IMG/VR virus record: IMGVR_UViG_3300045988_150048
Source: a virus
Direction: 5' to 3' (one strand)
Length of the DNA stretch: 37,699 nt
Made by a program: the position numbers and the translations under genes. Positions 1 through 6,120 of the stretch are shown here, piece by piece. Numbering within the stretch: the stretch's first letter is position 1; every line of letters begins with the position of its first letter. Below the pieces are notes generated by a model that was given only the letters and a program-made list of their open reading frames with translations, had not been told where the DNA came from and made no database searches.

Positions 1-55
1 GACAGCAGTTGCCACTATAGGTACTGCGGTAGCTATGGGAGATGTAAATTGGGTA
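1..55. repeat. Terminal overlap copy 1 (identical to 37645..37699)
   Basis: Exact 55-nt identity read directly: gacagcagttgccactataggtactgcggtagctatgggagatgtaaattgggta. Confidence 0.97.
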
Positions 56-148
56 ATGGTTGCGTCAGCGGCGGCATTAGCAGGCGTACTGTCGTTGCTG
101 ACATCAGTTGCGACGGGATTGCCGGAAGTGAATAACGAAAAGGAGTGA
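1..148 (+). CDS. Holin, r1t-type, 3' portion (continues from 37592..37699 across the circular junction); stop TGA at 146-148
   Basis: Frame 2 reads ..TAVATIGTAVAMGDVNWVMVASAAALAGVLSLLTSVATGLPEVNNEKE*. Joined product is 66 aa with two hydrophobic helices and the motif RAIKTIAQT typical of r1t-family holins. It sits directly upstream of the amidase. Confidence 0.8.
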   Translation, partial: TAVATIGTAVAMGDVNWVMVASAAALAGVLSLLTSVATGLPEVNNEKE

Positions 149-154
149 TGATTT

Positions 155-967
155 ATGCGAATTGGTATAAACTGCGGACACACTGTAAGTGGCACAGTCG
201 GTTGCGGTGCAGTCGGGTACATAGATGAAAGCGTAGAGGCTCGCAAAGTCGGATACGTTCTCGAAAATTTGTTAAAATGTGCAGGTCATACGGTGTATGA
301 CTGCACCAACGACCATGCTGCTACGGTTGTAGAAAACCTAAGTAATATTGTAAATATGGCAAATGCACAGCCACTTGACTTGTTTGTATCAATTCACTTT
401 AACAGTGGCGGTGGGCAAGGCACAGAGGTATGGACTTACGGTGGTAAAAAGTTTGATGAGGCAACAAATACTTGTAAGGCGATAAGTGAATTAGGTTTTA
501 AAAACAGAGGTATTAAAGACGGCTCTAAGTTGTATGTGGTACATCGCAGTGACGCAAAAGCTATGCTTGTTGAAGTGTGTTTTGTAGATACAGAGGACGC
601 AGAAAAATACAAAAAAATCGGTGCGGCAGAGTTCGCAAAAGCAATTTTCAAAGGAATAACAGGGCAGGAAACAGAAAGCGAGGATTTAACAATGTCACAA
701 TATACAGAATTGAAATCATTAATCGAAAAACAGGCGGCGGAAATTGCCGAATTAAAAGACGTAAATAAACAGTTGGTAAACGTAGTACAAACTACTATGA
801 TTTACGACTACAACGATAATAATATGCCGCCTTGGGCAAGACCAGCAGTCCAATCCGCAATGGATTGCGGAGCGGTACAGGGTGATGAGAACGGCAGATT
901 AGGTTTATCCTACAAAGATTTACGTGCCATTGTACGTGAATATCGTTGCGGACTGTACAATAAATAG
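155..967 (+). CDS. Endolysin: N-acetylmuramoyl-L-alanine amidase (Amidase_3) with a C-terminal coiled-coil plus SLH-like wall-binding module
   Basis: Motifs GINCGHT..G..E, DLFVSIHFNS and MLVEVCFVD match the Amidase_3 pattern. RBS aaggag lies upstream. The C-terminal YDYNDNNMPPWARPAVQSAMDCGAVQG motif is shared with ORF 28585..29415. Confidence 0.9.
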   Translation: MRIGINCGHTVSGTVGCGAVGYIDESVEARKVGYVLENLLKCAGHTVYDCTNDHAATVVENLSNIVNMANAQPLDLFVSIHFNSGGGQGTEVWTYGGKKFDEATNTCKAISELGFKNRGIKDGSKLYVVHRSDAKAMLVEVCFVDTEDAEKYKKIGAAEFAKAIFKGITGQETESEDLTMSQYTELKSLIEKQAAEIAELKDVNKQLVNVVQTTMIYDYNDNNMPPWARPAVQSAMDCGAVQGDENGRLGLSYKDLRAIVREYRCGLYNK

Positions 968-980
968 GACATATAAAAAT

Positions 981-1006
981 AGGTGGCTACGTGCCACCTA
1001 TTTTTT
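981..1006. terminator. Bidirectional rho-independent terminator between convergent genes
   Basis: Stem aggtggc/gccacct with a 5-nt loop, flanked by an A-run upstream and a T-run downstream. Confidence 0.8.
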
Positions 1007-1184
1007 ATTTTAAATTATAGTCGTGTTTTAATACTTTCAAAATCAGGTCTTCCGCCCAAATAGGCGGTTGAGCCTTTCCTGTTTCCCAATTTTGCAGAGT
1101 TCTAACAGGGATACTATAAATCACTTCCATATCCTTTTGTGTCAGTCCGGCTGCAAGTCGGGCTTGCTTAATCTTGCTATCCAT
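1005..1184 (-). CDS. Small XRE-type HTH DNA-binding protein (59 aa), last gene of a three-gene operon; Aca-like or antitoxin-like
   Basis: MDSKIKQARLAAGLTQKDM..IPVRTLQNWETGKAQPP is an HTH_3-like motif. RBS GGAG lies 8 nt upstream of ATG 1184. The ORF-track start at 1220 is a likely over-extension. Confidence 0.75.
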   Translation of the reverse strand: MDSKIKQARLAAGLTQKDMEVIYSIPVRTLQNWETGKAQPPIWAEDLILKVLKHDYNLK

Positions 1185-1189
1185 TTTTA

Positions 1190-1477
1190 TCACTCCTTTT
1201 TTGAGTGATACCCTGTCCAAAATGACATCCTCATATTTGTAGGAACAGGGGTATGCATCATTTCGTCCATTTCATCAACACTTAAACTGTCCATCATATC
1301 CCCGATTTCTGTATTTAATTCCTCTGAAATATATGGCATAGTTCTTTTAATCATTGTTGTAATGCTCCGCATTGGGAACATGTCACATTGGTTTTTAAAA
1401 GGGTCATTAAACCCTTTTAACTGGGTTAATTGGGCATAAACACTGCCCATAGCTTGTAAATTTTCACTTGTGTACAT
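1190..1477 (-). CDS. Hypothetical protein, 95 aa, Met-rich and acidic at the C-terminus
   Basis: ORF with RBS aaggaag. Its stop lies 5 nt from the start of the next gene. I recognise no motif. Confidence 0.6.
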   Translation of the reverse strand: MYTSENLQAMGSVYAQLTQLKGFNDPFKNQCDMFPMRSITTMIKRTMPYISEELNTEIGDMMDSLSVDEMDEMMHTPVPTNMRMSFWTGYHSKKE

Positions 1478-1502
1478 TTTTCTTCAACTTCCTTTCTTTA
1501 TT

Positions 1503-1525
1503 CCCCTGTCACTGAATGACAGGGG
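1503..1525 (-). other. Intercistronic 9-bp GC-rich hairpin (cccctgtca/tgacagggg)
   Basis: Perfect 9-bp stem with a 5-nt loop between genes 1538..1825 and 1190..1477. No U-tract follows on the minus strand, so it is more likely an RNA processing or stability element than a strong terminator. Confidence 0.45.
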
Positions 1526-1537
1526 ATATGTTGTTAA

Positions 1538-1825
1538 TTAATCTTCATCAACGTCTTTAGCTGTAAAATCAAAATAGTATTTTATCTTGACATCATTTTC
1601 GTTATATATACTTATATCATCTCTTGTCCACTCAATATATTCGCCTTTCTCAATGTTTTCTTTCATAACATCTGTAAGATAATTTATAGCAATAATTATT
1701 GCATCTTCGGGTGTTTCGGCTTCGATGTAGTCACCGACAAAATCGTAAGAGATGTTTTCCCAAGGCTCTTCGCCTGCACATTGTGCCTCGTTACCTACTC
1801 TGTTTTCAACTTGAAATCGTTTCAT
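1538..1825 (-). CDS. Hypothetical strongly acidic protein, 95 aa, first gene of the operon
   Basis: RBS AGGAGG lies 7 nt upstream. About 27 D/E against about 9 K/R by eye. No recognisable enzymatic motif. Confidence 0.65.
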   Translation of the reverse strand: MKRFQVENRVGNEAQCAGEEPWENISYDFVGDYIEAETPEDAIIIAINYLTDVMKENIEKGEYIEWTRDDISIYNENDVKIKYYFDFTAKDVDED

Positions 1826-1891
1826 TGTTTTGTCCTCCTAAATATTATTAAATATGTTCATTATTGAGGCTTTCCCTCATTTCTTGTCTAT

Positions 1892-1920
1892 ATTATAACA
1901 CCAAATTGGTGGGTTGTCAA
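1892..1920 (-). promoter_or_regulatory. Consensus sigma-A promoter for the minus-strand operon, with an embedded palindromic operator
   Basis: On the minus strand: TTGACA (1920..1915), a 17-nt spacer, then TGtTATAAT (-10 at 1897..1892). An A/T-tract UP-like region lies at 1921..1965. Confidence 0.8.
1899..1911. promoter_or_regulatory. 13-bp perfect palindrome CACCAA-A-TTGGTG inside the promoter spacer (candidate operator)
   Basis: Read directly. It sits between the -35 and -10 elements of the consensus promoter. Confidence 0.6.
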
Positions 1921-2014
1921 TAGCTTTTTCAAAAAAATTTAAAAAATTTTTTATTTTTTTTCATAAATAGCAATGTAATTATGCACAAAAATTTAATTAT
2001 ATTTTGGTATAAAA

Positions 2015-2031
2015 TATATAGTCGTATCTAT
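2015..2031 (+). repeat. 17-bp direct repeat copy 1 (TATATAGTCGTATCTAT), abutting TATAAT at 2032..2037
   Basis: Exact 17-mer present three times: 2015, 2258 and 2324. Confidence 0.9.
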
Positions 2032-2071
2032 TATAATGTGATATACTAAAATAAAAAAAGGAGTGGATATA

Positions 2072-2254
2072 ATGGCATATTCAGAGGCAAAGAAAAAAGC
2101 AACAATAAAATATCAAAAAAAAACATATGATAGAATTGAATTAAAAGTAAAGAAAGGTGAAAAAGAAAAGATAAAAGCAAGAGCAGCAGAGCTGGGAATT
2201 AGCGTAAATACGTATATGATAGAATTGATAAAAAAAGATTTGGAAGAGATATGA
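2072..2254 (+). CDS. Ribbon-helix-helix (Arc/CopG-like) DNA-binding protein, 60 aa
   Basis: MAYSEAKKKATIKYQKKTYDRIELKVKKGEKEKIKARAAELGISVNTYM matches the RHH beta-strand/helix pattern. RBS aaggag lies upstream of ATG 2072. Confidence 0.7.
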   Translation: MAYSEAKKKATIKYQKKTYDRIELKVKKGEKEKIKARAAELGISVNTYMIELIKKDLEEI

Positions 2255-2257
2255 ATA

Positions 2258-2274
2258 TATATAGTCGTATCTAT
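2258..2274 (+). repeat. 17-bp direct repeat copy 2
   Basis: Exact copy, 4 nt after the RHH stop codon. Confidence 0.9.
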
Positions 2275-2319
2275 ACAAAGTGTACAGATTTACGGTTGTA
2301 TATTTGTAAATAATGCCTA

Positions 2320-2348
2320 TTGATATATAGTCGTATCTATATTATAAT
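2320..2348 (+). promoter_or_regulatory. Sigma-A promoter for the small gene 2408..2554
   Basis: TTGATA, 17 nt, TATAAT. The spacer is occupied by repeat copy 3. Confidence 0.65.
2324..2340 (+). repeat. 17-bp direct repeat copy 3, filling a promoter spacer
   Basis: Exact copy lying between TTGATA (2320..2325) and TATAAT (2343..2348). Confidence 0.9.
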
Positions 2349-2407
2349 ATAATCAAGAGGTGAGGGAAACCAAACCCAAGACGGCAAGTGTCAGAAAGGA
2401 GTACAAA

Positions 2408-2554
2408 ATGCAAGAGATTATGACAGACAAGCAAATCGAAATCATTCTCAATCTTGTAGCTGACAAATTTTCAGCCTGCAAGGATATGGCGGAAGTCAAG
2501 AAAGCCATATCAGAAGTAAGAGAAATGGCGAAAAAAGAAAAGCCTGCCGAGTAA
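2408..2554 (+). CDS. Hypothetical small helical protein, 48 aa
   Basis: RBS aaaggag lies 7 nt before ATG 2408 (MQEIMTDKQIEIILNLV..) and a strong terminator follows. The ORF-track start at 2360 is a probable over-extension. Confidence 0.55.
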   Translation: MQEIMTDKQIEIILNLVADKFSACKDMAEVKKAISEVREMAKKEKPAE

Positions 2555-2579
2555 GCAGACTTAACAAAAAAACATCTAT

Positions 2580-2614
2580 GAACAGTGGAACTTGCCTCCA
2601 CTGTTCTTTTTTTT
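2580..2614 (+). terminator. Rho-independent terminator
   Basis: 10-bp stem gaacagtgga/tccactgttc, 7-nt loop, T8 run. Confidence 0.85.
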
Positions 2615-2731
2615 ATTATAGCATAAAAATCAGAAATTGCAATAGTTTTTATCAACTGTTTTGGTAGGGGCAATATTAAACATCTGTATTAACCGAGGTT
2701 GAATGATATGCCGAAATGGGCAAAATAAAAA

Positions 2732-4156
2732 TCAGACGAAGTTCCAATAGATATAAATATCATCATCATCTACTTCAATTCTGTTGATTAATGATGTTAT
2801 AACTTTAACTTTTTCCGTAAATTCTCCGTTGTCTAAGATGTTGGATATACCGGATAATCTTTTCTTTGCATCTTCGGCTGAAATTAATGGTTTGTGTTCG
2901 TTAATCGCATTCATTTCTGATTCTATACGTTTTTTGTCGGTATTTAGTGCAGTGATTTTCTTTGCCACAAAGTCAATATCAATTCCGTCTATGCTATACA
3001 AATCAGTTAGCTTATTCATTTGTTTTTCTATTTCTTTGATTCTTTTTTTATAGAATTCTTTTTTTTCTGTGATGTTATTGTTTGATTGGTTTAGTTTAAT
3101 AATATTATCAACTTCGGCTGGATTTGCCACTAATGCTTTTATTTCATCAATTACTGCTTTATCCAATACGTCCATAGTCCATATTTTATTTTTACAACTT
3201 TTATCTCGGACCATATTTTTATATGAACTACGACTATAACATTGATATTTATTATAATAATATACTTTGCTGCCCTTTTCGTATCGGCGAACTCTTTTAA
3301 AATATCTTGCACCGCATTTTTTGCACCATAGAATACCTGCGAGCAAAGATGTTCTGTTAAATGCATTACGATAATGGGGATTATTTTCGGCTCTTATTTT
3401 CAATTTGGTCTGTACCTTATCAAATACTTCTTGAGATATAATTGCTTCGTGTTGCCCCTTGTACAGCTCGTCACGGCAATGTGTCCATCCGGCATAAAGA
3501 GGATTTGTCAACATCTTTCTGATTCGGTGATCATACTTGAATTTCTCTGAAAATACTGATAATTTAGCCGCTATTCCCATCATAGTCATATCATCTTCCA
3601 AAAATAGACGATATGCTTCCTTTATCAATTCGGCTTCTTCTTTGTTTATTATAAGTTGACCGTCAATATAATCATACCCTGTTGGTGCTCCGCCTCCGTG
3701 ATGTAGTCCTTCCTTTGCTCTTGCATCTTTTCCCATTATGGAACGTTCTCTGAATTGTTCACGTTCCAACTGTGCAAATACTGATAATATACCAATCATA
3801 GCACGTCCGAAGGGTGTTGATGTATCAAAATTTTCTGTTATAGATGCAAAATTGACATTATTTTTTATAAATACATCTTCGATTAAAAAAAGTGTATCTT
3901 TTTGTGAACGGCTTAGGCGGTCTAATTTATAGACTAATACCATATCTATTTTACCGTCAGCAACATCTGATATTAATTGTTGCATTCCGGGGCGGTCAGT
4001 ATTTGCACCGGAAAAGCCTGCGTCAGTATATGTTTTATATAAAATCCAACCTTTAGCGGCACAATAATTTTTTAGACGTTCTACTTGCTCGCCGATCGAA
4101 TAACCCTCTCGTGCTTGCTCTTGGGTAGAAACTCTTGAATATATTCCGACTTTCAT
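2732..4156 (-). CDS. int: Large serine recombinase (phage integrase)
   Basis: N-terminal resolvase motif MKVGIYSRVSTQEQ..GYSI..Q. Also a recombinase domain, a Cys-rich zinc-ribbon (CKKCGARY..YQCYSRS..C) and a C-terminal coiled coil. 474 aa. Confidence 0.92.
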   Translation of the reverse strand: MKVGIYSRVSTQEQAREGYSIGEQVERLKNYCAAKGWILYKTYTDAGFSGANTDRPGMQQLISDVADGKIDMVLVYKLDRLSRSQKDTLFLIEDVFIKNNVNFASITENFDTSTPFGRAMIGILSVFAQLEREQFRERSIMGKDARAKEGLHHGGGAPTGYDYIDGQLIINKEEAELIKEAYRLFLEDDMTMMGIAAKLSVFSEKFKYDHRIRKMLTNPLYAGWTHCRDELYKGQHEAIISQEVFDKVQTKLKIRAENNPHYRNAFNRTSLLAGILWCKKCGARYFKRVRRYEKGSKVYYYNKYQCYSRSSYKNMVRDKSCKNKIWTMDVLDKAVIDEIKALVANPAEVDNIIKLNQSNNNITEKKEFYKKRIKEIEKQMNKLTDLYSIDGIDIDFVAKKITALNTDKKRIESEMNAINEHKPLISAEDAKKRLSGISNILDNGEFTEKVKVITSLINRIEVDDDDIYIYWNFV

Positions 4157-4170
4157 AAAAGCATCACTCC

Positions 4171-4566
4171 CTAAATATTGCCCTTTACTCTATGTATTCT
4201 TATTGTATTTTTTATAAAATCTTCCGTGACATTGAAATATTCAGCTAACTGCCATATTTCAGTATATCCCATTTCAAATGCTGCCAATAGTTTGTCCGCC
4301 GGAATCAATTCTTGTACTGCCCAGCGTGTTGCTTTTTCTTCCATACGCTGTCGTGTTTCATATTTTGAATCAATTTTGTAAAATGAACCTGTTTCGTGGT
4401 GCCCTAATTCATGTGAATACGCATCTATCAATTCAGGCATTGTATGAATCATTAACGGATTTAATGCAATAGCACCGGGTATGGACAATGCTTTAATTGC
4501 TCGCATTGAAAAAAAATCGACGTCTATATTATGTTGTATTGCATATTGATTGAGTTGATTTAGCAT
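4171..4566 (-). CDS. ImmA/IrrE-family zinc metalloprotease (anti-repressor protease)
   Basis: HEXXH motif (SHELGHHETG). Sits in the repressor operon upstream of int, as in immR-immA-int arrangements. Confidence 0.8.
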   Translation of the reverse strand: MLNQLNQYAIQHNIDVDFFSMRAIKALSIPGAIALNPLMIHTMPELIDAYSHELGHHETGSFYKIDSKYETRQRMEEKATRWAVQELIPADKLLAAFEMGYTEIWQLAEYFNVTEDFIKNTIRIHRVKGNI

Positions 4567-4588: not shown

Positions 4589-5707
4589 TTATTTCAAATT
4601 TAAAAATTTAACAAATTCATTAATTTCATTTACTTTATATCCTTTTTCATGCCAATATCGTACACGATTATTATTTTTATTTAAACTACCGGCTATAATT
4701 GCATATTTTGCATTTTTAGCAGCTGATTTATAACATTTGCCACCGTTTTCAATGCACTTCTTTTCGATGATACCTCTGAAAGTATCAGATATGTTATCAT
4801 TGTCAATAGTTCCAGTGGTGTCTAAAAAACAACGGTAAGCATCATTTGTTAATTCATCATATTTAGGAATGACACAATCAATATAATAATTAAAAAAATC
4901 AAGGTATATTCTTGAACATATTAAGCAATCATTCAGTGCATCATGTGATGAAATGTGTATATTATAGTATTTTTTTATTGTGCTTAATTTATAATCGGGT
5001 AACGAAAGTATGTCTTTAGCATAATCAAGCGTGTCGTGCACGTTATTACGCAAAATATTCATTCCCGTACAATTTAATGCGGTTTGCAAAAATTTCATAT
5101 CAAAAGCTGAATTATGTGCCACTAAATCATAATCACCAACAAATTCAACGAATTGTGGCAATACCACTGATATGTCCGGAGCAGATGCAACGGTTGATGC
5201 GTAGATATGATTAACTTTAGATGCACTTTTTGAAATTGGAACATTAGGTTTGACATATGTAGAAAAACGTGCTGTTTCTACTCCATCTATGTATTTGATT
5301 GCACCTATCTGTATTATCTCATCATATGAAGCGTCAAGTCCTGTTGTTTCTAAATCGAAAACTACAAACGTATTGATACACTCTTCGGGTGTATTATAAA
5401 AATTGATTACTTCCTTCTTGACGTTTTTTATACCTGGGTTAGGTTGTTTGACCGTCACCTCCGAGGGTGGTGAAAACGTACCCGTTTCAAGTTGTTCTGC
5501 GATATTGCGTTGTTTTTTTGCAACACAAAACAAAAAAATGGAGAATATAATTCCAAGGAGTCCTGCAAAAGGTATAACTAAGCATAATAATAAACTAAGC
5601 AAACATAATAATATGCTTAAAATTAAAGTAATAATCGAAAATGATTTTATGGTGGTTGGTGGATATTCCCATATTTTTTTTGTAAATAAATTTTTTTCAT
5701 TTTTCAT
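4589..5707 (-). CDS. Membrane-anchored DEDDh 3'-5' exonuclease (DnaQ/epsilon-like) with a C-terminal BRCT-like domain
   Basis: N-terminal hydrophobic segment of about 45 aa, consistent with two TM helices. Exo I FDLETTGL, Exo II HNSAFDMKFL, Exo III HDALNDC. The C-terminal AKYAIIAG..KGYKV..EFVKFL resembles BRCT. Confidence 0.8.
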   Translation of the reverse strand: MKNEKNLFTKKIWEYPPTTIKSFSIITLILSILLCLLSLLLCLVIPFAGLLGIIFSIFLFCVAKKQRNIAEQLETGTFSPPSEVTVKQPNPGIKNVKKEVINFYNTPEECINTFVVFDLETTGLDASYDEIIQIGAIKYIDGVETARFSTYVKPNVPISKSASKVNHIYASTVASAPDISVVLPQFVEFVGDYDLVAHNSAFDMKFLQTALNCTGMNILRNNVHDTLDYAKDILSLPDYKLSTIKKYYNIHISSHDALNDCLICSRIYLDFFNYYIDCVIPKYDELTNDAYRCFLDTTGTIDNDNISDTFRGIIEKKCIENGGKCYKSAAKNAKYAIIAGSLNKNNNRVRYWHEKGYKVNEINEFVKFLNLK

Positions 5708-5778: not shown

Positions 5779-6102
5779 TTATTCTTGTCGTTGTGATTTT
5801 TTAAATTTAACATATGACAGAATGTCCTGTTTTTCGTCATCTGTTAAATCGTGTATCTCACCGTATAATGCGAATTCAATTCCACTTAACTGTTCGTCTA
5901 AAGTATTTGCTTTTTTTTCTTCCCCAACTAAAAAATCAACAGTTACATCAAAATAATTAGCCAATTTTTTTATAATGTCAATACTGGGTTCACTATCTCC
6001 ACGTTCATATTTAACATATGTTGTTCTGTCTACGCCAAGATACTTTGCTACATCCTTTTGATATACACCTTTTTTTGTTCGCAATTCCCTAAGGATATTC
6101 AT
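5779..6102 (-). CDS. CI-like XRE-family repressor
   Basis: MNILRELRTKKGVYQKDVAKYLGVDRTTYVKYERG is an HTH_3 motif. RBS GAGGTG precedes ATG 6102. It is divergent from the Cro-like gene across an operator region. Confidence 0.88.
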   Translation of the reverse strand: MNILRELRTKKGVYQKDVAKYLGVDRTTYVKYERGDSEPSIDIIKKLANYFDVTVDFLVGEEKKANTLDEQLSGIEFALYGEIHDLTDDEKQDILSYVKFKKSQRQE

Positions 6103-6120
6103 GATAATCACCTCAAAAAC

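What the first reader, a model, noticed from the sequence alone, without database searches (positions are those of the whole stretch)
1005..1965. acr-aca-like anti-defence operon candidate: consensus promoter with embedded palindrome, acidic 95-aa protein, Met-rich 95-aa protein, small HTH
Downstream of the endolysin and on the opposite strand lies a compact three-gene operon.
- Its promoter is a perfect sigma-A consensus: TTGACA, 17 nt, TGtTATAAT, with an A/T-tract UP-like region at 1921-1965.
- The spacer contains a perfect 13-bp palindrome, CACCAA-A-TTGGTG.
- The first product is strongly acidic (about 27 D/E against 9 K/R) and has no enzymatic motif.
- The second product is Met-rich and has no motif I recognise.
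- The last product is a 59-aa XRE-type HTH.

This combination is the published architecture of anti-CRISPR/anti-defence loci with an Aca autorepressor: a very strong promoter, a palindromic operator, small acidic proteins first, and an HTH last. In Listeria prophages such loci sit between the lysin gene and the prophage end, as this one does. A toxin-antitoxin or lysogenic-conversion role is the main alternative.
Basis: partly seen in the sequence, partly recalled or inferred. Interest (0 to 1): 0.72.

Follow-up and report, generated by a model that had tools for sequence, protein, structure and literature searches.

The report
Self-repressed phage cassette of candidate immunity blockers
A temperate gut-Clostridia phage carries, at its prophage end, a small gene cassette with a very strong promoter that its own last gene most likely switches off; its shuffled small acidic cargo proteins look like inhibitors of bacterial immunity, one of them possibly a decoy copy of a CRISPR complex subunit, but no function has been shown.

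Summary
A perfect sigma-A promoter (12/12 plus TG) holds a 13-bp palindrome in its spacer. It drives an acidic 95-aa protein (A), a Met-rich 95-aa protein (B) and a 59-aa HTH_3 protein (C), and ends at a terminator shared with the endolysin.

Related loci show a cassette family. In 38 distinct complete cassettes the UP tract, hexamers, leader and terminal HTH are conserved, while the cargo is shuffled. Three operator palindromes pair without exception with three HTH recognition helices, even where the same cargo sits in different shells. Autorepression by C is therefore well supported.

- A belongs to a family of about 90-aa proteins on mobile elements. Its model is confident but has no analogue among solved structures.
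- B was inserted into an ancestral A-C operon. In at least 17 other phage loci B directly follows an AcrVA2/FinQ-family gene.
- B's best structural matches are type I-C Cascade small subunits (Cas11c). Sequence support is weak (hhalign P about 0.015).

No cargo protein matches a validated anti-defence protein, toxin or defence system. A fixed toxin-antitoxin pair and an integrase-specific excision factor both look unlikely.

Verdict: an acr-aca-like autoregulated cassette, probably anti-defence. It is a new member of a known kind.

The parts
1921..1965 (-). A/T-rich UP-element-like tract upstream of -35. Its proximal part, TTTTTTTGAAAAAGC, is conserved across the cassette family.
1915..1920 (-). 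-35 hexamer TTGACA
   Evidence: 12/12 match, 17-nt spacer
1899..1911 (.). Operator candidate: a perfect 13-bp palindrome, CACCAA-A/T-TTGGTG, in the promoter spacer and overlapping the TG of the extended -10. This is class 1 of three operator classes.
   Evidence: Unique in the window. Same position and dyad symmetry in all related cassettes, co-varying with the HTH recognition helix.
1892..1900 (-). Extended -10, TGtTATAAT
1871..1889 (-). Conserved 5' leader AGACAAGAAATGAGGGAAA. It includes the 5' arm of a small hairpin (TGAGG 1875-1879 pairing with CCTCA 1865-1869; -6.7 kcal/mol).
   Evidence: Exact leader found in 16 viral and 43 metagenome stretches; 45 of the 59 carry the cassette promoter, the rest do not. 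Fold.
1538..1825 (-). Gene A: 95 aa, acidic (pI 4.07). It is the first cargo gene and belongs to a family of about 90-aa proteins on mobile elements. RBS AGGAGG at 1833-1838.
   Evidence: 56 distant relatives and a profile search. AF2 model pLDDT 93.2. No PDB analogue; only uncharacterised viral proteins in BFVD. Composition.
1502..1526 (-). Conserved GC-rich hairpin (11-bp stem in the predicted fold, -19 kcal/mol) after gene A, with no U-tract in the sense direction. Likely an mRNA 3'-stabiliser or processing/attenuation element that sets the ratio of A to downstream products (inferred).
   Evidence: conserved in L209, where it lies directly between A' and C'
1190..1477 (-). Gene B: 95 aa, 13 Met, all-helical. 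It is a passenger gene inserted between the hairpin and C. It is a candidate Cas11c-like decoy and elsewhere a partner of AcrVA2-family genes.
1005..1184 (-). Gene C: 59-aa single-domain HTH_3 protein (pI 9.1), the putative Aca-like autorepressor. Its recognition helix is PVRTLQNWE.
975..1005 (.). Bidirectional intrinsic terminator shared with the convergent endolysin gene (13-bp stem, -18.7 kcal/mol)
   Evidence: conserved in L209

Best explanation
This is a self-contained, negatively autoregulated accessory cassette of a temperate phage of uncultured gut Clostridia. It is built like an anti-CRISPR/Aca operon.

Proposed mechanism, all steps inferred unless marked:
1. On DNA entry, host sigma-A RNA polymerase fires the consensus promoter (UP tract, TTGACA, 17 nt, TGnTATAAT). 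This produces a burst of the small acidic cargo proteins A and B.
2. The last gene product, the 59-aa HTH protein C, accumulates and binds as a dimer to the 6+1+6 palindrome in the spacer, which overlaps the extended -10. This occludes the polymerase and throttles the operon.
3. Throttling limits antisense read-through into the convergent lysis genes and keeps expression low in the lysogen.
4. The hairpin after gene A probably raises the ratio of A to C.

The cargo most likely consists of stoichiometric protein inhibitors of host immunity.
- B is most plausibly a diverged homologue or mimic of the type I-C Cascade small subunit Cas11c. It would poison Cascade as a faulty subunit, as AcrIB4 does for type I-B.
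- A belongs to a rapidly diversifying family with a new fold. Its target is unknown.

Shown here: the sequence features, the modular cassette family, and the operator/HTH co-variation. Inferred: DNA binding by C, repression, and every cargo function.
For: Regulation:
- The promoter is 12/12 plus TG, and the operator is unique in the window.
- 38 distinct complete cassettes fall into three operator classes, each paired with one recognition helix and with no exception. The pairs are CACCAA-T-TTGGTG with VRTLQNWE, CCAYCCA-W-TGGGTGG with LGTLAHWEK, and ACGCCCA-A-TGGGCGT with LRTLSHWEN.
- The same cargo occurs inside different shells. The 83-aa and 94-aa A subtypes and p107 each occur with both class 2 and class 3. 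The matched operator and HTH flank a recombining interior, which argues for functional coupling rather than mere linkage.
- The L001-L004 variant of C is only 85% identical, yet it keeps the recognition helix and the operator.
- The half-site geometry (arms separated by 1 bp) and the gene order (two small genes, then a roughly 60-aa HTH) parallel acrIC7-acrIC6-aca10 (PMC9410881). Aca10 is the third-best PDB sequence match for C (E=0.024).

Cargo:
- All cargo proteins are small and acidic, pI 4.0-5.1.
- Cargo is shuffled: four A subtypes, a chimera, p107, B, p189 and p159.
- B sits within 14 nt downstream of an AcrVA2-family gene in at least 17 loci.
- That neighbour matches AcrVA2 structure 7CI1 at E=5e-7. 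The match includes the C-terminal RPHxRRGHWHxYW motif that carries the residues needed for AcrVA2 activity (10.1101/2022.11.29.518452).
- The Foldseek search of the B model against the PDB puts type I-C Cas11c or Cas8c C-termini at 8 of the top 11 ranks. These come from at least two organisms (probability up to 0.90, TM 0.46-0.65).
- A 14-sequence Cas11c HMM scores all 18 B-family members positive. Window B scores 5.7 bits, equalled by 13 of 5000 shuffles. The top two members exceed all 5000 shuffles.
- hhalign gives P=0.013-0.018. In its permissive mode it returns a full-length collinear alignment that matches invariant G, D, P, P and F-x-x-G-Y positions.
- Cas-derived Acrs have a precedent. 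AcrIB4 is homologous to the last 90 residues of Cas8b (10.1101/2023.06.24.545427) and is proposed to replace Cas11 (10.1101/2025.06.06.658234).

Location:
- The cassette lies between the lysin and the integrase, and abuts host genes in the integrated copy L001.
Against: - No cargo protein matches any validated anti-defence family, and no experiment exists.
- The Cas11c link is weak. Foldseek E-values are 0.16 or worse. The B model is only moderately confident: pLDDT 77.6 for the best model and 51-66 for the other four.
- hhalign probability is 3% or less. The reverse HMM search gives no signal. Pfam Cas_Csd1 does not hit B.
- The host's CRISPR type is unknown. Its best genome relatives are only 71% identical in one flanking protein.
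- The slot between lysin and att in temperate phages also hosts lysogenic-conversion and superinfection-exclusion genes.
- Relatives of A occur in varied contexts without a consistent HTH partner: a Rep3 plasmid-like contig and a phage replication region.
- Operator/HTH co-variation rests on only three classes, so the number of independent events is small.
Confidence: 0.55

Rival explanations
1. A lysogenic-conversion or host-modulation moron. The cassette is autoregulated as described, but A and B act on host physiology or on competing phages (for example superinfection exclusion or inhibition of a housekeeping protein) rather than on immune systems.
For: The slot between lysin and att at the prophage end is a classic site for such genes. 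The cassette is the terminal prophage module. No cargo protein has homology to a validated anti-defence protein. The A fold matches only uncharacterised viral proteins.
Against: The cargo proteins are cytoplasmic, small and acidic, with no membrane or secretion features visible in the sequence. Cargo turnover is fast, with unrelated first genes under the same shell, which is typical of arms-race genes. B is tightly linked to the AcrVA2 family and has Cas11c-like hits.
Confidence: 0.22
2. A type II toxin-antitoxin or abortive-infection module. C is an XRE-type antitoxin that also autoregulates, and A and/or B is a toxin.
For: C gives weak matches to MqsA and HigA antitoxin HTH domains. The order of cargo first and HTH last resembles HigBA. 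The operator lies in the promoter.
Against: One HTH class accompanies unrelated first genes (A subtypes or p107) and optional second genes (B, p189, p159), which does not fit a cognate neutralising pair. C is a bare 59-aa DNA-binding domain with no extra toxin-binding domain. A and B are acidic, whereas toxins are usually basic or neutral. There is no hit to a toxin family or a PADLOC model. B also occurs without any adjacent HTH in other phages.
Confidence: 0.07
3. A phage-internal control module, such as a recombination directionality factor for the neighbouring serine integrase or an anti-repressor, under its own repressor.
For: The cassette lies next to a large serine integrase, directly downstream of it in L209. 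RDFs of serine integrases are small and diverse.
Against: A near-identical A-B-C cassette (A and B 99%, C 85% identical, same operator) sits next to integrases that are only 24-26% identical, and next to host DNA in L001. Cargo type does not track integrase type. A consensus constitutive-type promoter is an odd choice for an excision factor. B occurs beside tyrosine integrases in another phage family.
Confidence: 0.06
4. B is not a Cas11 mimic. It is an accessory partner (adaptor or chaperone) of AcrVA2/FinQ-family effectors, or an unrelated helical inhibitor, and the Cas11c resemblance is a coincidence among helical bundles.
For: B is translationally coupled to AcrVA2-like genes in most loci. 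The Foldseek E-values are not significant. hhalign probability is 3% or less, and the reverse HMM search gives no signal.
Against: The window has B but no AcrVA2-like gene, and other loci pair B with an unrelated 188-aa protein. B can therefore stand alone. Out of 350,542 PDB chains the top hits converge on a single family. A pre-specified follow-up sequence test then gives p of about 0.003-0.02.
Confidence: 0.3

Closest known systems
acrIC7-acrIC6-aca10 operon of Pseudomonas citronellolis (Aca10, PDB 7XI5; PMC9410881)
   Same: Two small genes are followed by a roughly 60-aa single-domain HTH. The operator is a palindrome with half-sites separated by 1 bp, overlaps the promoter, and is inferred to block RNA polymerase. 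Aca10 is the third-best PDB sequence match for C (paper read).
   Different: Sequence similarity is only generic (E=0.024). The operator here is shorter (13-17 bp against 19-21 bp) and lies entirely in the spacer and -10 region. The cargo is unrelated to AcrIC6 or AcrIC7 as far as could be tested. The host is Gram-positive. Nothing has been tested experimentally.
Listeria prophage acr loci at the lysin-proximal prophage end
   Same: The position is the same: after the lysin, at the prophage end, on the opposite strand. Both have a strong promoter, an HTH autoregulator and shuffled small cargo.
   Different: In Listeria the HTH protein (AcrIIA1) comes first and is itself an Acr. Here the HTH comes last and is a bare DNA-binding domain. 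No sequence homology was found.
AcrIB4 (Listeria; homologue of the Cas8b C-terminus/Cas11b) and other viral cas-derived Acrs (10.1101/2023.06.24.545427; 10.1101/2025.06.06.658234)
   Same: B is an orphan protein of about 95 aa on a mobile element. It resembles the small-subunit portion of a Cas8 protein, and the proposed mechanism is subunit poisoning.
   Different: AcrIB4 is 38% identical to its Cas8b. B has no significant pairwise identity to any Cas8c, and its evidence is a fold match plus weak profile statistics. The subtype would be I-C rather than I-B. B's activity is untested.
AcrVA2/FinQ family (PDB 7CI1; 10.1101/2022.11.29.518452)
   Same: This family is the immediate upstream neighbour of B in at least 17 related phage loci. 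The neighbour keeps the functional C-terminal H/R motif.
   Different: The window itself has no AcrVA2-like gene. No small partner of AcrVA2 came up in what I read of the AcrVA2 preprint (term search only).
HigBA/MqsRA-type toxin-antitoxin operons with an XRE antitoxin
   Same: A small gene or genes precede a small HTH that autoregulates through a promoter palindrome. C gives weak HTH-level matches.
   Different: The cargo is interchangeable under one HTH class. No toxin homology was found. C has no toxin-binding extension.

Membership tests
acr-aca operon (anti-CRISPR locus with Aca autorepressor) | A small HTH gene is co-transcribed with small non-enzymatic genes from one promoter | tested here: met
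   One promoter, three tightly spaced ORFs and one terminator. The same layout appears in 38 distinct complete related cassettes.
acr-aca operon (anti-CRISPR locus with Aca autorepressor) | An inverted-repeat operator overlaps the promoter and is specific to the associated HTH | tested here: met
   The palindrome lies in the spacer and -10 region. Three operator classes partition perfectly with three recognition helices despite cargo exchange. This is sequence-level evidence only.
acr-aca operon (anti-CRISPR locus with Aca autorepressor) | The HTH protein binds the operator and represses transcription | not testable with these tools
   Needs EMSA or a reporter assay.
acr-aca operon (anti-CRISPR locus with Aca autorepressor) | At least one cargo gene is a validated Acr, a homologue of one, or shown to inhibit CRISPR-Cas | tested here: inconclusive
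   A has no match anywhere. B has no sequence match but is linked to AcrVA2-family genes elsewhere and has Cas11c-like fold hits. dbAPIS and Anti-DefenseFinder were not available.
acr-aca operon (anti-CRISPR locus with Aca autorepressor) | The HTH belongs to a named Aca family (Aca1-Aca13) | tested here: inconclusive
   Only solved Aca structures could be compared. Aca10 matched at E=0.024; Aca1 and Aca2 did not appear at E<=1. Aca HMMs were not available.
Cas11c / C-terminal small-subunit region of Cas8c (for protein B) | Significant sequence match to Cas_Csd1 or Cas11c profiles | tested here: not met
   No Pfam hit. hhalign probability 0.16% with 4 sequences and about 3% with 14 sequences, P=0.013-0.018. 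Window B scores 5.7 bits against the Cas11c HMM, equalled by 13 of 5000 shuffles. The reverse search gives no signal.
Cas11c / C-terminal small-subunit region of Cas8c (for protein B) | The same five-helix fold as Cas11c | tested here: inconclusive
   Cas11c or Cas8c chains take 8 of the top 11 Foldseek ranks against the PDB (probability up to 0.90, TM 0.46-0.65), but E>=0.16 and the model pLDDT is 77.6.
Cas11c / C-terminal small-subunit region of Cas8c (for protein B) | Encoded inside a type I-C cas operon | tested here: not met
   B is an orphan in phage accessory regions. If the fold assignment is right, this is what would make it an Acr candidate rather than a Cas protein.
Type II toxin-antitoxin system with XRE antitoxin | A fixed cognate toxin/antitoxin gene pair | tested here: not met
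   The same HTH class occurs with A subtypes or the unrelated p107, with or without B, p189 or p159.
Type II toxin-antitoxin system with XRE antitoxin | The partner protein is homologous to a known toxin family | tested here: not met
   No Pfam, NCBIfam, PADLOC or PDB hit for A or B.
Known anti-phage defence systems (PADLOC-DB) | A component protein matches a defence-system model | tested here: not met
   A, B, p189 and p188 give no hits. C gives only generic HTH matches with E>=2e-4.
AcrVA2/FinQ family | A roughly 320-340-aa protein with the C-terminal RPHxRRGHWHxYW motif | tested here: not met
   Present next to B in other loci but absent from the window (tblastn).

The most novel reading that the evidence does not exclude
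B is a highly diverged, phage-borne copy of the type I-C Cascade small subunit (Cas11c) that acts as a decoy subunit. That would make it the first Cas-derived anti-CRISPR against type I-C. It would also be a habitual partner of AcrVA2/FinQ-family proteins in gut Clostridia phages, pairing two unconventional Acr mechanisms in one locus. The A family (new fold, at least 56 representatives at 50% identity clustering) and the other cargo proteins (p107, p159, p189) would be further undescribed anti-defence families. All would be discoverable through a conserved promoter, leader and Aca-like shell that comes in three orthogonal operator/repressor specificities.
Probability: 0.3. Interest if true: 0.75.

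Novelty: new member of a known kind. Interest (0 to 1): 0.6.

Why it matters
Four things would follow if this reading is confirmed.
- The conserved 19-nt leader plus the HTH is a ready-made guilt-by-association anchor. It could be used to mine anti-defence genes in phages of uncultured gut Clostridia, where almost no Acrs are known.
- The three operator/repressor pairs would be a natural set of orthogonal, very compact (59-aa) repressor-promoter switches for Gram-positive hosts.
- B would extend the idea of viral Cas-derived decoy subunits from type I-B to type I-C. It would also show that such decoys can diverge beyond the reach of cas HMM searches.
- The tight coupling of B to AcrVA2/FinQ genes suggests a functional partnership that did not come up in what I read of the AcrVA2 preprint (term search only).

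If it is not confirmed, this is still a cleanly delimited, autoregulated moron cassette. That is useful for annotation but ordinary.

Tried and rejected
- DNA similarity of 900-2700 to 50,697 deposited phages gave no match.
- Pfam, PHROGs, NCBIfam and PADLOC scans of A, B and the other cargo proteins gave nothing above noise. A's DUF6894 hit (E=0.06) and single-member hits such as Tad8 (E=0.068) were dismissed as noise.
- Rfam on 900-2750 found no family.
- A PDB profile search with the B family found nothing at E<=10.
- The A model had no analogue in the PDB (TM<0.3). In BFVD it matched only uncharacterised proteins.
- B is absent from GTDB representative genomes.
- The HTH-based guilt-by-association scan in viral contigs gave only two weak relatives. 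The leader-DNA scan was far more productive.
- The A-family profile scan in viral contigs gave one locus, L209, which turned out to be the key comparison.
- The 'AcrVA2-like' label could not be reproduced with the local Pfam copy. It was verified instead against PDB 7CI1.
- The RDF or excisionase idea was rejected because the same cassette sits beside integrases only 24-26% identical.
- The TA idea was rejected because cargo is interchangeable.
- The first hhalign of B against 4 Cas11c sequences was negative. Enlarging the Cas11c set to 14 improved it only to P of about 0.015.
- Host identification reached only 'uncultured Oscillospiraceae/Clostridia' at 71% identity or less, so the host's CRISPR subtype could not be determined.
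- The exact att crossover could not be placed. Three different upstream contexts join the cassette within the A/T tract.
Full report
**1. What is in the sequence**

The window is a temperate-phage genome written in a circularly permuted form.
- A holin fragment and an Amidase_3 endolysin (155-967, +) are followed by the finding on the minus strand.
- Next come two small plus-strand genes (an RHH protein at 2063-2254 and a 48/64-aa ORF at 2360-2554).
- Then a large serine integrase (2732-4156, -), an ImmA-like M78 peptidase, an RNase_T-domain protein and an HTH repressor.
- After these come replication, packaging and tail genes.

- TTGACA lies at 1920-1915, with a 17-nt spacer and TGtTATAAT at 1900-1892. 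It is the only 12/12 site in 1-4500.
- The 13-bp palindrome at 1899-1911 is perfect and occurs once in the whole window.
- A (1538-1825) has 25 D+E against 9 K+R, pI 4.07. B (1190-1477) has 13 Met in 95 residues. C (1005-1184) has pI 9.1 and passes the Pfam HTH_3 threshold.
- The operon ends at a bidirectional terminator at 975-1005, -18.7 kcal/mol.
- Between A and B lies an 11-bp GC-rich hairpin of -19 kcal/mol (z = -4.5) with no U-tract.

**2. The cassette is one member of a modular family**

A near-identical cassette (A and B 99%, C 85%, same promoter and operator) occurs in other contigs.
- In L001 it is the last phage module before host genes (BioY, transaldolase, PP2C and others).
- In L004 it lies behind an integrase only 24% identical to the window's.

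A profile scan with relatives of A found L209.
- There a 53%-identical A' is followed directly by the same hairpin and a 54%-identical C', with no B.
- It again sits between a serine integrase (26% identical to the window's) and a lysin.
- The window and L209 share a 19-nt leader, AGACAAGAAATGAGGGAAA.

Scanning for that leader returned 16 viral and 43 metagenome stretches.
- 38 distinct complete cassettes share the A/T tract, both hexamers, the leader, a terminal 59-60-aa HTH and, in the window and L209 where it was read, the terminator.
- The cargo varies. There are four A subtypes (83, 93, 94 and 95 aa) and an A chimera of 112 aa.
- An unrelated acidic 107/108-aa protein replaces A in some loci.
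- Optional second genes are B, a 189-aa protein or a 159-aa protein.
- All cargo is acidic (pI 4.0-5.1) and unannotated.

B is therefore a passenger inserted between the hairpin and C of an ancestral A-C operon.

**3. Regulation**

The spacers fall into three palindrome classes, centred at the same or an adjacent spacer position.

| Class | Operator | Recognition helix | Distinct cassettes |
|---|---|---|---|
| 1 | CACCAA-T-TTGGTG | VRTLQNWE | 5 |
| 2 | CCAYCCA-W-TGGGTGG | LGTLAHWEK | 30 |
| 3 | ACGCCCA-A-TGGGCGT | LRTLSHWEN | 3 |

- There are no exceptions to this pairing.
- The same cargo types occur with class 2 and class 3 shells (83-aa A, 94-aa A, p107). Recombination therefore happens between promoter and HTH, yet the two stay matched.
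- The L001-L004 variant of C differs at 9 of 59 residues but keeps the recognition helix and the operator.
- L238 carries a class-3-like C-terminal tail on a class-2 helix with a class-2 operator.
- I take this as good comparative evidence that C binds the palindrome as a dimer.
- The site fills the spacer and overlaps the TG of the extended -10, so binding should exclude RNA polymerase. That is negative autoregulation of the kind shown for Aca1, Aca2 and Aca10 (PMC9410881).
- C's third-best PDB sequence match is Aca10 (E=0.024). The best is the uncharacterised Atu1735 (E=6e-5). HigA and MqsA matches are weaker.

**4. Protein A**

- The word-index search found only near-identical copies.
- The exhaustive HMMER search found 56 cluster representatives at 30-50% identity, nearly all 85-105 aa. 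A profile search added more.
- Their contexts are mobile elements of various kinds: a Rep3 plasmid-like contig, a phage replication region, and the accessory region of the phages that carry B.
- The AlphaFold model is confident (pLDDT 93.2). It shows a beta-hairpin, one long helix and a three-stranded sheet.
- It has no PDB analogue (best TM 0.29). In BFVD it resembles only uncharacterised small viral proteins (TM up to 0.59).
- Its function is unknown. Fast diversification, acidity and first position behind a burst promoter fit a stoichiometric inhibitor.

**5. Protein B**

- Relatives are 66-76% identical.
- In a different prophage family they sit beside a tyrosine integrase, 3-14 nt downstream of a 338-340-aa protein, or of an unrelated 188-aa protein.
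- The local Pfam copy did not reproduce the precomputed 'AcrVA2-like' label for the 338-340-aa neighbour.
- That protein does match the AcrVA2 structure 7CI1 at E=5e-7. The match runs through the C-terminal KRPHxRRGHWHxYW motif. This motif holds the residues whose mutation abolishes AcrVA2 activity.
- The window has no AcrVA2-like gene.

The B model is five helices, with pLDDT 77.6 for the best model and 51-66 for the other four.
- Foldseek against 350,542 PDB chains puts type I-C Cas11c or the Cas8c C-terminus at 8 of the top 11 ranks. These come from at least two organisms, with probability up to 0.90 and TM 0.46-0.65, but E>=0.16.

I then built Cas11c alignments to test this at sequence level.
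- Sequences came from two viral-contig Cas8c genes found through a I-C repeat scan, from PDB alignments and from ten plasmid cas8c genes.
- With 4 sequences hhalign was negative.
- With 14 sequences the Cas11c HMM scored all 18 B-family members positive. Window B scored 5.7 bits, equalled by 13 of 5000 shuffles. The two best members exceeded all 5000 shuffles.
- hhalign gave P=0.013-0.018. In permissive mode it produced a full-length collinear alignment pairing invariant positions of both families: G-x-[LV]-[FY]-A-x-L in helix 1, D, P, P, and F-x-x-G-Y at the C-terminus.
- The reverse HMM search gave nothing.

I rate 'B is Cas11c-like' at roughly 40%. There is a precedent. AcrIB4 is homologous to the last 90 residues of Cas8b and inhibits type I-B Cascade. 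It is proposed to replace Cas11.

**6. Rivals**

- A toxin-antitoxin pair is unlikely. Cargo is interchangeable under one HTH class, C has no extra domain, and there is no toxin homology.
- An integrase-specific excision factor is unlikely. The same cassette accompanies integrases only 24-26% identical.
- A non-immune lysogenic-conversion function cannot be excluded.

**7. Host**

- Flanking host genes in L001 are at most 71% identical to those of uncultured Oscillospiraceae, Hominilimicola and other Clostridia MAGs.
- B is absent from GTDB species representatives.
- The host's CRISPR subtype could not be determined.

**8. Verdict**

- The architecture-based reading (Aca-like autorepressed cassette with shuffled cargo) is well supported, at about 0.85.
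- An anti-defence function is the best but unproven reading, at about 0.55.
- The Cas11c-decoy reading of B is an attractive, testable minority case.

Noticed in passing
window 2011-2031, 2254-2274, 2320-2340 (+), with genes 2063-2254 (+) and 2360/2408-2554 (+): There are three direct copies of ATATATAGTCGTATCTAT. The first and third are each followed by TATTATAAT, and the third lies in the spacer of an 11/12 promoter at 2320-2348. They precede a 63-aa RHH/Arc-like protein (phrog_13890, E=4e-17) and a small ORF. This looks like a second, independent repressor-operator mini-module inserted between the integrase and the cassette. It is absent from L209, where the integrase directly abuts the cassette.
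   Followed up: partly
window 4589-5707 (-): A 372-aa protein with an RNase_T/DEDDh exonuclease domain (E=1e-29) sits inside the lysogeny module, between the ImmA-like M78 peptidase (4171-4566) and the HTH repressor (5779-6111). That is an unusual place for an exonuclease. It could be a prophage-expressed defence or anti-defence gene.
   Followed up: no
L013, L014, L015, L194-L197, L207 (e.g. L013:3629-5758): In the other phage family that carries B, the AcrVA2-like gene and B belong to a longer string of small genes next to a tyrosine integrase. The order is a 110-aa protein, AcrVA2-like, B, a very acidic 84-aa protein (pI 4.05) and a 42-aa ORF. A relative of A (31% identical) lies about 4.5 kb upstream in L013. 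This looks like an anti-defence island.
   Followed up: partly
L001-L004 versus window 1005-1184: C is only 85% identical between the window and L001-L004, while A and B are 99% identical and the promoter is the same. The cassette's 3' end is therefore mosaic. All nine substitutions lie outside the PVRTLQNWE recognition helix.
   Followed up: yes
L226 (metagenome contig ERZ839947 NODE-8572): A 112-aa first gene is a chimera. It joins the N-terminal two-thirds of the 93-aa A subtype to the C-terminal third of the 83-aa subtype. This is direct evidence of recombination within cargo genes.
   Followed up: no
L259 (gut metagenome OWOV01000529): This cassette has a degraded promoter (TTGATA ... TATATC), a broken class-2 palindrome (CCACTCA-T-TGGGTGG) and a divergent HTH (IRTIENWDS) behind a 243-aa relative of p159. 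It may be a decaying or re-wired copy.
   Followed up: no
window 155-967 versus L209:3058-3891: The two endolysins share the C-terminal roughly 90 residues (...SEDLTMSQY...RAIVREYRCGLYNK) but have different N-terminal catalytic regions. The window's is Amidase_3; the 277-aa L209 protein has an unrelated N-terminus. This indicates domain swapping next to the conserved cassette terminator.
   Followed up: no
L065:1175-7201 (IMGVR_UViG_3300025669_002088): A 125-kb viral contig carries cas3, cas5c, cas8c and cas7c next to a I-C-type repeat array, with only about 880 nt left for any adaptation genes. It appears to be a phage-borne type I-C interference module. It was found only as a by-product of collecting Cas11c sequences.
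   Followed up: no
L015:6571-7449: A Fic-domain gene is inserted in the lysogeny region of one B-carrying prophage, between the HTH genes.
   Followed up: no
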